From positions 248,001 through 312,000 of the forward strand of contig NZ_BAABFP010000007.1 of assembly GCF_039541115.1 (NCBI RefSeq): a stretch of 64,000 nt of DNA, written 5' to 3'. Each line of letters starts with the position of its first letter. Position 1 is the stretch's first letter. Position numbers: made by a program. Of the stretch, positions 59,301-62,300 are shown in pieces. Source of the DNA: Angustibacter luteus (GTDB lineage Bacteria; Actinomycetota; Actinomycetes; Actinomycetales; Angustibacteraceae).

Positions 59301-62300
59301 CTCGAGCTGGACGTCGCCGGCAACACCGTCGACACCGCGCGGGTGCAGCTGGACAACCTGGTGCGCAACGAGGTCGACGCGCTGGACACCGTCAACGCCG
59401 GTGACCTGTGGCTCGACACCGCGGGGGCCTGCAAGGTGCCCAAGGCCGAGCTGAACGCCCGGTTCGTGGCGCGGGACCTGCACTTCTCGAGCTGGTCGCT
59501 CTCGCTGCTCGGCGGCCCTGGCGGCAACCCGCCGCAGCCGCCGCTGCACCTGCCCGGCAACCTGCCGATGCTCCCGACGTCGTCCCAGACGCCGTTGTCC
59601 GGCACCGACTTCACGATCGACCTGACGGACCCGATGCTCGCCCCGTGCGGGTACGTCGTGCGGCTGACGATCGTGGACCGGGCCATCGTGAACAGCGTGA
59701 CGCAGGGGCAGCACGCGACGATCGACCGCGGGATCTGCCTGGAGTAGCAGCCAGGTGCGCCGGATCGTGGCAACCTCGCATCACCGGCGATGCGAGGTTG
59801 CCACGATCGCGTCGGGTTCGACTCAGGTCAGGGGCGTGGGGACCGGCTGCGGCGGCCGCGGCCCCCGGTAGCGGCCGCTGCCCCGGAAGCGCAGCGGCGT
59901 CTCGTCGTACTCCTCCAGCGCGTGCGCGATCCAGCCGACGGAGCGCGCGACGCAGAACACCACCTCACCGCCGTCCCGCACCATGCCGGACGCCGCCCCG
60001 AGGGCCGCCAGTGCCAGGTCGACGTTGGGCCGCTGGTCGGCCGCGTCGGCCAGCCGCTCCACCAGCTCGACGACGTCCGCCGCGGCCGGCTCGTCCGCCA
60101 GCAGGGCGAGCAAGGCCGCGGCCCGTGGGTCGCCGTCGGGGTAGAGCGGGTGGCCGAAGCCGGGCAGGTGGCGGCCCGTGCGCAGGTGGTCGGCGACGAC
60201 GAGCTGCGGGTCGCGCTCGGCCGCATCGGTGAGCAGGTCGCGGGCCAGGGTGCTGGCCGCGCCGTGCAGCGGACCTTCCATGGCGGCCAGCCCGGTGGCG
60301 ACCACGGCGTACGGGTGCGCCCGGACCGAGGCCGCCGTCCGGGCCGCGACGGTGGAGACCGCCAGGTCGTGGTCCAGCATCAGCACCAGGGCGGCGTCCA
60401 GGCAGCCGAGCAGCCGGTCGGTCGGGGTTCGCTCGGACAGGCGGGCCCAGAGGCGCCGGGCCAGCGCGGCATCGGGTGCCGGCGCCGCGCCGAGCAGGGG
60501 GAGCGCCTCGACCATCGTCGCCACCAGGCCCTGCGCCATGGGCACCACGGCCCGCTCGCGGACGTCGTACCGCAGGAGGTCGACGGCGCCGGCTGCGCTG
60601 ACGGCGACCCGGAGCCGGCCCATCAGGTCGGCGGACGGCGGGAGGCTGGCCGCCGCGGCCCGGGCTGCGGCCAGCGGCTCGGCGGGGGCCGCGAAGCGGG
60701 TCGGACCGCAGTCGCCGGTCCACAGCCAGCGGGCCGCCGGCTCGAAGCCGACGCTGGCGGCCAGCTCGGCGGCGTCCACGCCCCGCAGGTAGAGCCGGCC
60801 CTCCTCGATCAGGGTGATGTCGGTGTCCACCACCGGGCCCTGCCAGGTGCGGGCCGGGGTGGCGGTGCGCCGTCGCGGGTCGCCCTGGGCCAGCGCCTCG
60901 ACCTCGTCCCGGTCGAACGTGCTGCCCCGGCCGCCGGCTGACCGGTCGCTGGTGAGCCGGCCGCGGCTCACGTACGCGTACACCGTCTCGAGCCGGACGC
61001 CGAGCAGGTCGGCGACCTCCTGGGTGGTCAGCCGGGTCGGCGGTCGAAGCGTCATACATTGACTGTATCAACGTTGACAGCGATAGGTGGACAGTCGCAC
61101 GCTGCGGGCATGACGACGACGACACAGAACGACCTGATCGAGGTGCCCCGAGGACTGAAGGGGGTGGTGGTCACCGAGACCGAGCTGGGCGACGTCCGCG
61201 GGGACGAGGGGTTCTTCCACTACCGGCAGTACTCGGCCGTCGAGCTGGCCGAGCGCCGCGGGCTGGAGGACGTGTGGTTCCTCGGGCTGTTCGGCTGGCT
61301 GCCGGACGACGCCGAGCGGGCGGCGTTCGGCGCTGACGTTGCGGCCGCCCGGCACCTGCCGCCCGAGGTTGCGGAGGCGCTGCCGGTCATCGCCGCCGGT
61401 GGCGGCTCGCCGCTGGACGGGCTGCGCACCGTCCTGTCGCTGCTCGGCAGCGCCCGCGGCCTGCGACCGGTCTACGACCTGGACGACGACACCCGCCGCC
61501 GCGACGCCATCGGGCTGGCCGCCGCCGTGCCGACCGTGCTGGCCGGGCTGCACCGGTTGCGCGCCGGGCTCGTCCCGCTCGAGCCCCGGGACGACCTGGG
61601 CCACGCCGCGGCGTACCTGACCATGCTCACCGGCGCCGAGCCGACACCCGAGCAGGCCCGCGCCGTCGAGCAGTACCTCGTGCTGACCGTCGACCACGGC
61701 TTCAACGCCTCGACGTTCACGGCCCGGGTGATCGCCAGCACCGGCGCGGACGTCGCGGCCTGCCTGGTCGGCGCGATCGGCGCACTGTCCGGGCCGCTGC
61801 ACGGCGGCGCGCCCAGCCGCGCCCTGGACACGCTGGACGACATCGGCACCGTCGAGCGGATCGACCCCTGGGTCCGCCAGCGGGTGCTCTCCGGGGACCG
61901 GATCATGGGCTTCGGCCACGCCGTCTACCGCACCGAGGACCCGCGTTCGCGGCTGCTGCGGGGCGTCGCCGAGCGGCTCAGCGAGGGGGACCCCGCGGCG
62001 TCCGAGCTCGTCGAGCTGGCCGAGCAGGTCGAACGTCGCGTGGTGCAGATCCTGGCCGAGCTCAAGCCGGGCCGCGAGCTGCACACCAACGTCGAGTTCT
62101 ACGCCGGGGTCGTGATGTCGCTGTGCGGGCTGCCGCGCGAGCTGTTCACCCCGACGTTCGCCGTGGCCCGGGTGATCGGCTGGTCCGCGAACGTGCTCGA
62201 GCAGGCCCGCGACCCCAAGATCATCCGGCCGTCCGCGCGGTACGTCGGGCCACCCCCGCCGCAGCCGGTGCCCGCCCGCTGAGGCCAGCGCTGGTGTCGA

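What a model noticed while it worked through the whole genome (the two positions that open the first line are those of the whole stretch)
59823..62282. Citrate synthase paralogue fused to a DNA-binding domain, with a conserved AT-rich operator shared with a second citrate [...]
g03046 joins an excisionase/MerR-type winged helix-turn-helix (residues 8-57) through a disordered linker to a complete citrate synthase fold that keeps the catalytic His/His/Asp, and is transcribed divergently from another citrate synthase paralogue (g03047) across a 54-bp spacer that carries a conserved TTGA/TCAA-rich palindromic module. I read the fusion as an enzyme-derived transcription factor that senses oxaloacetate/acetyl-CoA (or citrate) with its synthase body and controls its own gene and the neighbouring synthase. 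New would be a TCA-cycle enzyme acting directly as a DNA-binding regulator throughout Actinomycetota, where databases call it plain 'citrate synthase'.
Evidence so far: Pfam HTH_17 9-57 and Citrate_synt 74-385 on one 410-aa protein. 1628 proteins match the N-terminal 110 residues at E<=1e-6; 118 of the 120 listed carry PF12728 + PF00285, most from Streptomyces, source names 'citrate synthase'. In 23 aligned members H264 (GPLHG), H302 (GxGH), D346 (NVD), R311, R371 and most of the HTH (L18 G19 V20 E23 T24 V25 Y26 A27 Y28 S30 R31 G32) are invariant. AlphaFold model pLDDT 86.7: winged HTH, linker 60-74 with pLDDT<50, then the synthase fold. In 78 of 80 related loci (Streptomyces, Jiangellaceae, Wenjunlia, MAGs) a g03047-like synthase lies upstream on the other strand; 73 of 78 spacers hold TGTCAANNTTGA inside a ~60-nt conserved AT-rich module of four TTGA/TCAA [...]
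(Added by a program. Inside this text positions count along the whole contig: contig position 248,001 is position 1 of the stretch shown here. "Call 12" and the like, gene names such as g00115 and contig names such as C1 are that model's own, and its searches are not shown. The text may have been shortened before it was handed on; [...] marks where a part breaks off. The agent that wrote the report below was given it as the finding of a first reader that could run no searches.)

Follow-up and report, generated by a model that had tools for sequence, protein, structure and literature searches.

The report
Citrate-synthase-fold gene regulator with operator
A protein labelled as a citrate synthase carries a DNA-binding head and sits back to back with a second citrate synthase gene, and the short DNA site beside it follows the protein across distant bacteria even when the neighbouring gene changes, so it is most likely an unstudied gene switch that uses a Krebs-cycle enzyme body as its metabolite sensor.

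Summary
Confirmed, with corrections. 59823-61055(-) encodes a Xis/BldC-type winged helix fused to a whole citrate-synthase fold. It faces a CitA-type synthase (61110-62282) across 54 bp.

The conserved core TCAAnnTTGA lies upstream of 198 of 228 homologues, against 6 of 7017 control windows. It persists where the neighbour is not a Si-citrate synthase (DRE-TIM synthase, CoA transferase, dehydrogenase) and in Proteobacteria and Deinococcus, which lack MtrA (recalled). Half-site spacing follows the protein's clade, not the host phylum. The core is therefore not the MtrA site.

Published primers map Caulobacter citC onto a homologue of this fusion. In that paper CitC failed to complement E. coli gltA while the partner CitB succeeded. 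Citrate-binding residues are kept; basic CoA-site residues are lost.

Best reading (0.75): a dimeric repressor covering its own -10 and the partner's -35, switched by citrate (or oxaloacetate). No binding has been shown.

Corrections: the family is patchy, not phylum-wide (47 of 301 sampled), and reaches other phyla; this window has three half-sites, not four. My paper searches found no description as a regulator. This scan noted the family before in other genomes.

The parts
59823..61055 (-). Fusion gene, 410 aa (P0001): winged helix-turn-helix, linker, citrate-synthase fold; proposed regulator
60885..61031 (-). Xis/BldC-type winged HTH, residues 9-57 (motif LGVxxxTVYAYVSRG)
   Evidence: Pfam HTH_17 and TIGR01764 over cut-off; sequence match to Pukovnik Xis 4J2N E 3e-5 and BldC 6AMK E 8e-4; fold match Z 7.7 rmsd 1.9 over 54 residues and Z 7.2 rmsd 1.8 over 52 (Z under 8 is modest on its own)
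60837..60881 (-). Low-confidence linker, about residues 59-73
   Evidence: block pLDDT 51; residues 66-69 under 50
59850..60836 (-). Citrate-synthase-fold domain, residues 74-402: H229, R239, H264, H302, R311, D346, R371, R391 kept; A232 for Asn, P306 for Arg/Lys, small-domain loop about 15 aa shorter than in the partner
   Evidence: fold match 3HWK Z 36.8 rmsd 3.0 over 337 residues
61056..61109 (.). 54-bp divergent spacer
61058..61079 (.). Proposed operator ATTGA-N5-TCAA-N2-TTGACA: half-sites 61059-62, 61068-71, 61074-77; palindromic core TCAACGTTGA 61068-77
   Evidence: core in 198 of 228 upstream regions vs 6 of 7017 control windows; full form once in the genome
61062..61070 (-). Putative extended -10 (TG-n-TACAGT) ending 6 nt before the fusion's ATG; leaderless promoter inside the operator
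   Evidence: read from the sequence; a -10-like hexamer 6-7 nt before an in-frame ATG in 111 of 179 loci of the actinobacterial set, background 5%; the generic sigma-70 scan found none
61074..61079 (+). Putative -35 (TTGACA) of the partner gene; same bases as the third half-site
   Evidence: a -10-like hexamer at spacer 17 in 34 and at spacer 18 in 110 of 165 core-bearing loci of the actinobacterial set
61098..61103 (+). Putative -10 (CACGCT) of the partner, 18 nt after the -35 and 6 nt before its ATG
   Evidence: read from the sequence; family pattern; inference
61088..61097 (+). First 10 of the 16 bases of the published predicted MtrA word; its TCAA end is missing here
   Evidence: compared by eye with the S. 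avermitilis site in the supplement of PMC12323332
61110..62282 (+). Partner citrate synthase, 390 aa (P0002), B. subtilis CitA / actinobacterial CitA type with Glu at the catalytic Asp; an extra synthase beside gltA and citA elsewhere in the genome
   Evidence: PRK12350 328.5 bits vs cut-off 332; best solved match 2C6X E 3.5e-81; other synthases

Best explanation
P0001 is a one-component transcription factor. Two citrate-synthase-fold bodies form the usual homodimer (modelled), which carries two winged helices on flexible linkers (shown as architecture). These bind the inverted TTGA/TCAA half-sites in the spacer (inferred). The site covers the fusion's own -10 and the partner's -35, so binding most simply represses both genes (inferred). 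The old active-site cleft is kept as a carboxylate pocket while the basic CoA-gripping residues are gone (shown by alignment; their role is recalled from synthase structures). A small acid would then drive the synthase's open/closed movement and change DNA binding (inferred). My odds for the ligand in this clade are citrate 55, oxaloacetate 35, other 10. Its usual target is an auxiliary citrate synthase: here the Glu-type CitA paralogue, in other lineages a DRE-TIM enzyme that is probably a Re-citrate synthase. Some branches have been redeployed to organic-acid operons.
For: Element: exact core in 198 of 228 upstream 240-nt windows (216 within one mismatch), against 6 of 7017 other windows of the same loci and 36 of 22800 shuffles. 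It follows the fusion, not the neighbour: exact in 22 of 25 loci whose divergent gene is a DRE-TIM enzyme (17), CoA transferase (4), 2-hydroxyacid dehydrogenase (3) or MFS transporter (1), and within one mismatch in 25 of 25. It follows the protein clade, not the phylum: among core-bearing loci, clade A (this window) has the left half-site at N5 in 128 of 153, clade B at N7-10 in 35 of 37. All 7 clade-B loci printed from the window's own phylum have the long spacing, and clade-A loci labelled Acidobacteriota and Verrucomicrobiales have N5. The recognition helix is as conserved as the active site (Y26, Y28, G32 120/120; S30 118; R31 119). Divergent placement against varied operons is the usual layout of a regulator. 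Not a working synthase: in C. vibrioides DSM 9893 both citB primers and the citC reverse primer of Berge et al. match exactly, and the citC forward primer with 3 mismatches, placing citC on the fusion homologue. CitB, but not CitC, rescued E. coli gltA (PMC7083601). Pocket: in 80 dereplicated fusions R311 80, R391 79, R239 79, R371 78, H229 77, H264 74, D346 74, H302 72. Position 306 is Arg/Lys in 16 of 80 (Pro 51) against 28 of 29 partners, and a Lys/Arg kept in 27 of 29 partners falls in a gap in P0001. In M. sedula synthase Asn182 binds oxaloacetate but not citrate and Arg351 binds citrate but not oxaloacetate (PMC6386500); P0001 has Ala232 and Arg391 at those places, which favours citrate. 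Homodimer score 0.80, best of 3 controls 0.01; the mark was reached by 20 of 30 solved pairs and 1 of 23 single chains; runs agree in at least 86% of contacts, pLDDT at least 84; this may reflect likeness to solved synthase dimers.
Against: No binding, expression or mutant data exist for any member that I found. TTGAC doubles as the partner's -35, so part of the conservation has a promoter explanation. The element is not universal: exact core absent in 30 of 228 loci, present in only 1 of 4 loci with a CDF-transporter neighbour and 4 of 10 with no recognised neighbour. The loci are not independent; many are Streptomyces. CitC is in the other clade (35% identical to P0001), even has GFDHP in place of GFGHP, was tested only by heterologous growth, and I saw no expression control in the passages read; my mapping used DSM 9893, not NA1000. 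The catalytic His/His/Asp are kept. PMC6386500 notes that Asn182 is not conserved in all active synthases, so Ala232 does not show loss of activity. MtrA shifted a probe from the S. coelicolor spacer, and both genes rose in the mtrA mutant (PMC12323332). The tree is the quick version, without bootstrap.
Confidence: 0.75

Rival explanations
1. Bifunctional trigger enzyme: it binds the operator but is also an active synthase or lyase of some acyl-CoA, and turnover or an acyl-CoA ligand controls binding, as with BirA or PutA.
For: H264, H302 and D346 are kept in 72-74 of 80 dereplicated members; complete fold; modelled synthase-type dimer with the arm carrying R391 in the interface. Its GFGHPL and NVD motifs resemble citryl-CoA lyase models, though below cut-off (78.5 vs 193 bits).
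Against: CitC did not complement gltA. Basic CoA-site positions are lost and the small-domain loop is shortened (35 residues from R311 to D346 vs 50 in the partner). Best synthase model scores 117.9 vs cut-off 332. His and Asp also line the citrate pocket, which explains their retention without catalysis.
Confidence: 0.13
2. The element is just overlapping divergent promoters plus sites for global regulators (MtrA, GlnR); the fusion is a synthase paralogue or regulatory subunit whose helix-turn-helix does something else.
For: TTGAC is the partner's -35. MtrA bound the S. coelicolor spacer probe. The fusion faces a Si-type synthase in 185 of 228 loci, which a heterodimer would also explain.
Against: The minus-strand TTGA lies only 12 nt before the fusion's ATG here, too close for a -35. 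The core persists in Proteobacteria and Deinococcus, which have no MtrA (recalled). The MtrA word is a separate stretch found in 74 of 186 and 0 of 42 loci. Half-site spacing tracks the protein clade. The fusion persists with non-homologous neighbours, so it does not need a synthase partner.
Confidence: 0.07
3. It is a DNA-binding regulator but an activator of the partner (MerR-like or class II), not a repressor.
For: MerR-like fold of the head. In Streptomyces extra TCAA half-sites lie between -35 and -10 and after -10, and the spacer is mostly 18 bp.
Against: Classical MerR activation needs 19-20 bp spacers and a coiled coil (recalled); only 5 of 165 loci show a -10-like hexamer at 19-20. 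The core sits on the -35 itself, and in this window no half-site lies inside the spacer.
Confidence: 0.05

Closest known systems
Caulobacter crescentus CitB/CitC (CCNA_03757/CCNA_03758; Berge et al. 2020, PMC7083601 and bioRxiv 10.1101/799742; passages and primer rows read)
   Same: Same divergent pair and same core element. CitC carries HTH_17 plus Citrate_synt. CitB is active in E. coli, CitC is not.
   Different: In the passages read CitC is treated only as a putative synthase; the term helix-turn-helix does not occur in the preprint. CitC belongs to clade B (Asn kept, N9 spacing). The moonlighting enzyme of that paper is CitA, an ordinary synthase.
Streptomyces coelicolor SCO5831/SCO5832 (citA3/citA4; PMC12323332, section 10 read whole, supplement passages)
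   Same: Divergent pair. The S. avermitilis site at -15/-65 equals the word 15 nt before the partner ATG in Streptomyces loci, so SCO5832 is the partner and SCO5831 the fusion (inferred from position, not from their sequences).
   Different: Described as two putative synthases under MtrA; no DNA-binding role proposed in what I read.
BldC / Xis winged-helix proteins (PMC5859096, passages; PDB 6AMK, 4J2N)
   Same: Nearest solved relatives of the head by sequence and fold.
   Different: BldC is a 68-residue stand-alone protein without an effector domain that binds direct repeats head to tail; here the head is fused to a dimeric enzyme fold and the sites are inverted.
Regulators with enzyme-derived sensor domains: GabR/MocR (aminotransferase), NagC/Mlc (ROK kinase), BzdR (shikimate kinase), and trigger enzymes BirA, PutA (all recalled)
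   Same: Same design principle: a DNA-binding head plus a metabolic-enzyme fold as sensor and dimer core.
   Different: None that I recall uses the citrate-synthase fold or a Xis-type head.
Bacillus subtilis CitA (PDB 2C6X) with its divergent LysR regulator CitR (CitR recalled)
   Same: The partner is a CitA-type, Glu-bearing minor synthase with a divergent regulator.
   Different: CitR is LysR-type and unrelated to the fusion.

Membership tests
Si-citrate synthase (active enzyme) | Complete two-domain fold | tested here: met
   Z 36.8, rmsd 3.0, 337 residues to 3HWK; Foldseek top hits all synthases
Si-citrate synthase (active enzyme) | Catalytic His/His/Asp and carboxylate-binding Arg/His | tested here: met
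   H264, H302, D346, H229, R311, R371, R391
Si-citrate synthase (active enzyme) | Score above a curated synthase model cut-off | tested here: not met
   best PRK12350 117.9 vs 332; TIGR01800 108.1 vs 421.3
Si-citrate synthase (active enzyme) | Basic residues of the small-domain CoA site | tested here: not met
   GFGHPLYPDGDPR vs GFGHxVY(R/K)xxDPR; Lys-Pro loop missing; the role of these residues is recalled
Si-citrate synthase (active enzyme) | Makes citrate from acetyl-CoA and oxaloacetate | not testable with these tools
   homologue CitC negative in E. coli complementation
Si-citrate synthase (active enzyme) | Homodimer with C-terminal arm crossing to the other subunit | tested here: inconclusive
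   model supports it (0.80 vs best control 0.01) but may reflect known dimers
Citryl-CoA lyase (PRK06224) | Score above cut-off | tested here: not met
   78.5 vs 193 bits at best
Xis-type HTH_17 DNA-binding domain | Profile score above cut-off and winged-helix topology | tested here: met
   PF12728 33.6 vs 27; TIGR01764 33 vs 28.8; helix-helix-strand-strand-helix
BldC family | HTH_BldC model score; stand-alone small protein | tested here: not met
   25.2 vs 77 bits; 410-aa fusion
BldC family | Binds direct repeats head to tail | not testable with these tools
   the conserved sites are inverted, with a 15-bp repeat of TTGA in clade A; binding mode unknown
Classical MerR activators | Coiled-coil dimerisation helix after the head | tested here: not met
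   head is followed by a low-confidence linker and the synthase fold; head not in the modelled dimer interface
Classical MerR activators | Operator between -35 and -10 of a 19-20 bp spacer | tested here: not met
   spacer 17-18 bp, core on the -35
One-component regulator with enzyme-derived sensor | DNA-binding domain fused to an enzyme fold, with a conserved cognate site near its own gene | tested here: met
One-component regulator with enzyme-derived sensor | Ligand-dependent DNA binding and control of transcription | not testable with these tools
   needs EMSA and mutants
CitA-type (Glu) citrate synthase, for partner P0002 | PRK12350 score and NVE motif | tested here: inconclusive
   328.5 vs 332 bits; Glu in 29 of 29 partners; homologue CitB active

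The most novel reading that the evidence does not exclude
A large, multi-phylum and undescribed family of transcription factors made from a retired citrate synthase reads citrate directly through the enzyme's open/closed movement. It is so tied to citrate synthesis that it stayed on the same operator when its Si-citrate synthase target was replaced, twice independently, by non-homologous Re-type (DRE-TIM) citrate synthases, and it has also been redeployed to other organic-acid operons.
Probability: 0.45. Interest if true: 0.75.

Novelty: new variant of a known kind. Interest (0 to 1): 0.62.

Why it matters
It would add the citrate-synthase fold to the short list of enzyme folds recruited as transcription-factor sensors and give a direct citrate or oxaloacetate readout at the entry to the Krebs cycle. 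It would explain why Streptomyces and Caulobacter carry 'extra' synthases, one of which did not work as an enzyme in E. coli, and it would correct many annotations and metabolic models: 956 clusters at 50% identity match at E up to 1e-30, and sources mostly name the listed relatives citrate synthase. Operator, promoters and model organisms with existing deletion plasmids are now named, so the test is simple. A citrate-responsive repressor would also be a useful biosensor part.

Tried and rejected
Global regulon: rejected for this genome. The full element occurs once; of four other core matches two share the exact 10-mer, one in what reads as 23S rRNA and one at what reads as a LysR-type gene start, and two look intragenic (read by eye). 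Core as MtrA site: rejected; the exact S. coelicolor word was in 0 of 278 loci. Two back-to-back -35 boxes: rejected because the minus-strand TTGA is too close to the start codon. Glu at the partner's catalytic Asp as a defect: rejected (29 of 29 partners; CitB active). DRE-TIM neighbour as the only citrate synthase of its hosts: rejected, since all 5 genomes tested hold at least two other PF00285 genes; its Re-synthase identity rests on 7 of 120 homologues so named by JGI, most being named generically, and on recall for the Deinococcus protein. The generic sigma-70 and terminator scan found nothing. No RNA holder was listed. The citC forward primer found no Caulobacter among 37 loci, and none of these matched either protein. 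The second loci scan returned almost only Streptomyces. Cluster look-up gave no organism names. PMC4736845 was not held, so the CoA-site assignment is recalled. The careful tree did not finish; the quick tree was used, and L004 (long branch) was ignored. Paper searches that found no description of this family as a regulator; subscription journals are mostly absent from the library.
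Full report
Observation. The window holds a 410-aa ORF at 59823-61055 on the minus strand (P0001) and a 390-aa ORF at 61110-62282 on the plus strand (P0002), 54 bp apart. 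P0001 has Pfam HTH_17 at 9-57 and Citrate_synt at 74-385. It passes the excisionase model TIGR01764 but no synthase model; the best is 117.9 bits against a cut-off of 332. P0002 scores 328.5 against 332 on PRK12350, and its best solved relative is B. subtilis CitA 2C6X. The AlphaFold model from a 120-row alignment (mean pLDDT 93.9) shows a winged helix, a low-confidence linker and a full synthase fold. The body aligns to 3HWK at Z 36.8; the head aligns to Pukovnik Xis and BldC at Z 7.7 and 7.2, the same relatives found by sequence. The genome also encodes a GltA-type synthase, a CitA-type synthase and a short citryl-CoA-lyase-like protein (names by eye), so P0002 is an extra.

Range. 5796 of 8000 scored candidates matched at E up to 1e-20, and 111 of the 120 listed carry both domains. 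956 clusters at 50% identity match at E up to 1e-30. The nearest named relative is from Angustibacter sp. McL0619, 78% identical. The family is patchy: 47 of 301 sampled genomes of the window's phylum and 40 of 401 in the phylum of the Caulobacter genome (that tally includes unpublished G686, used nowhere else). The N-terminal 130 residues matched 91 plasmid records, led by Agrobacterium, Burkholderia, Roseomonas, Paraburkholderia and Ensifer, with one Deinococcus among the 40 listed. 'Throughout Actinomycetota' is therefore both too strong and too narrow.

The element. The spacer begins ACATTGACTGTATCAACGTTGACA: TTGA, 5 bases, TCAA, 2 bases, TTGA. That is three half-sites, not four. I examined 231 loci, leaving out the 37 chance hits, four duplicates and L247; 228 contained the head. 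The core TCAAnnTTGA is exact in 198 of 228 upstream windows and within one mismatch in 216, against 6 of 7017 other windows and 36 of 22800 shuffles. Many loci are Streptomyces, so these are not independent counts. The full form occurs once in this genome, so the regulon looks local. The element overlaps promoters. TTGACA at 61074-79 has a -10-like hexamer 18 bp on; family-wide, 34 of 165 loci show one at 17 bp and 110 at 18 bp. On the other strand TG-n-TACAGT ends 6 nt before the fusion's ATG; a -10-like hexamer sits there in 111 of 179 loci against a 5% background. The generic scan saw neither promoter. So part of the conservation is promoter, but TCAA and the left TTGA are not explained that way.

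Whose site is it? The divergent gene is a Si-type synthase in 185 of 228 loci. In 17 it is a DRE-TIM enzyme, in 4 a CaiB-type CoA transferase, in 3 a 2-hydroxyacid dehydrogenase, in 1 an MFS transporter and in 4 a CDF transporter; 4 have a recognised gene only far off and 10 have none. In the first four non-synthase classes the core is exact in 22 of 25 and within one mismatch in all 25. It is exact in only 1 of 4 CDF loci and 4 of the 10 without a neighbour. In a Burkholderia plasmid the fusion ends an operon and the element sits at the divergent promoter about 2.7 kb upstream. The quick tree (83 rows, SH-aLRT only) splits the family into clade A, with this window, and clade B, with Caulobacter and Deinococcus. 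The left half-site lies at N5 in 128 of 153 core-bearing clade A loci and at N7-10 in 35 of 37 clade B loci. Seven clade B loci from the window's own phylum have the long spacing, and two clade A loci labelled with other phyla have N5. A site that follows the protein through changes of neighbour, host and geometry is best read as that protein's operator.

MtrA. PMC12323332 (section 10 read whole, supplement passages) predicts an MtrA site between sco5831 and sco5832, shows a gel shift, and finds both genes higher in the mutant late in growth. The S. avermitilis version of the site, 15 nt before SAV_2427, equals the word 15 nt before the partner ATG in my Streptomyces loci. This places the fusion at SCO5831, by position only. 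The word lies 17-18 nt to the partner side of the core, covers the partner's -10, and occurs in 74 of 186 loci of the mainly actinobacterial set and 0 of 42 others. MtrA may be a second input in Streptomyces, but it does not explain the core. The same paper reports oxaloacetate accumulation in the mutant on another medium, a weak hint for oxaloacetate as inducer. PMC7324645 and PMC9739823 (one passage each) list SCO5831 only as a citrate synthase-like protein.

Is it an enzyme? Berge et al. (bioRxiv 10.1101/799742 and PMC7083601; passages and primer rows) found that Caulobacter citB, but not the adjacent citC, rescues E. coli gltA. In C. vibrioides DSM 9893 both citB primers match the partner exactly; the citC reverse primer matches the 3' end of the fusion exactly and the forward primer its 5' end with 3 mismatches; the core element lies between the genes. 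That protein has HTH_17 plus Citrate_synt and is 35% identical to P0001. The caveats are another clade, another strain and a negative result in a foreign host. In 80 dereplicated fusions the carboxylate-binding and catalytic residues are kept (R311 80, R391 79, R371 78, H229 77, H264 74, D346 74, H302 72). Position 306 is Arg or Lys in 16 of 80 against 28 of 29 partners, and the stretch from R311 to D346 is 35 residues against 50 in P0002, removing a Lys or Arg kept in 27 of 29 partners. PMC6386500 (passages) places the acetyl-CoA pocket in this small domain; that these particular residues grip the CoA phosphates is recalled. The same paper reports that Asn182 contacts oxaloacetate but not citrate and Arg351 the reverse. 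P0001 has Ala232 and Arg391 there, and Ala in 43 of 52 of the actinobacterial set. This favours citrate, though that paper also says the Asn is not universal among active synthases. A homodimer model scored 0.80 against a best control of 0.01 (mark reached by 20 of 30 solved pairs and 1 of 23 single chains; contact agreement at least 86%, pLDDT at least 84). The arm bearing R391 is in the interface and the heads are not; the pass may reflect known synthase dimers.

Mechanism. Shown: domain architecture, conserved recognition helix, conserved site and its overlap with promoter-like boxes, kept carboxylate pocket, eroded CoA-side residues. Inferred: DNA binding, repression of both genes, ligand control through the open/closed movement, and the ligand itself. 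I put 0.75 on this picture, 0.13 on an active trigger enzyme, 0.07 on the site belonging to other factors, and 0.05 on activation.

A bolder point. Sixteen loci of one actinobacterial family and one Deinococcus plasmid place a DRE-TIM acyltransferase where the Si-synthase usually stands, in two separate branches of the tree. JGI names 7 of 120 close homologues of the first type 'citrate (Re)-synthase'; most carry generic names. The Deinococcus protein resembles clostridial Re-synthases by recall only. If right, the regulator kept its job across non-homologous replacements of its target, which ties it to citrate synthesis. The five hosts tested still carry other synthases, so the DRE-TIM gene would again be auxiliary.

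Comparison and novelty. The design matches known regulators built on enzyme folds (GabR, NagC/Mlc, BzdR; recalled), and the head matches BldC and Xis (PMC5859096, passages), but it fails the BldC, classical MerR and active-synthase membership tests. Six searches of the held library found no paper describing this family as a regulator; most subscription journals are not covered, and bioRxiv supplements could not be seen. Earlier notes of this scan reached the same reading in other genomes. They are not independent support, and I found the Caulobacter link before seeing it in them. Verdict: a real, widespread, apparently undescribed regulator family; a new variant of a known kind; interest 0.62. 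It is not special to this genome.

Noticed in passing
window 57582-59747 (+): 721-aa ORF converging on the fusion gene, with no Pfam or NCBIfam match. Atlas neighbours are unnamed clusters of about 700 aa, commonest in Bacteroidota (feature score 0.97, TM about 0.6).
   Followed up: partly
window 55906-57537 (+) and 62510 to the window end (+): Two similar membrane-anchored molybdopterin oxidoreductase genes flank the region; the first matches Oxidored_molyb, the second resembles it by eye.
   Followed up: no
L219-L241 (16 loci, family f14) and L164:3623-4663: DRE-TIM acyltransferases, possibly Re-citrate synthases, replace the Si-synthase partner under the same element.
   Followed up: partly
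L028 and L039, partner gene: The partner synthase has an extra N-terminal part of about 120 codons that reads like a CBS pair (by eye).
   Followed up: no
L045 spacer: Five tandem 15-bp copies of the half-site unit, suggesting cooperative binding along an array.
   Followed up: no
L165:2035-2349: On a Burkholderia cepacia plasmid the fusion ends an SDR-MFS-VOC operon and two element copies lie at the divergent promoter 2.7 kb upstream.
   Followed up: partly
L166 and L170: A divergent long-branch pair of fusions with eroded active-site motifs beside aldehyde dehydrogenase/Rieske and TPP-enzyme genes; possibly a third sub-family with other ligands.
   Followed up: no
L125, L153, L214, L218; L108, L128, L136, L145: Some Streptomyces-type loci show neither partner nor core in the DNA held; others keep the core without a near partner, as autoregulation would predict.
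   Followed up: partly
G000:C2:500867-502902: A CaiB-type CoA transferase-like gene followed by a short citryl-CoA-lyase-like gene elsewhere in this genome (by eye).
   Followed up: no
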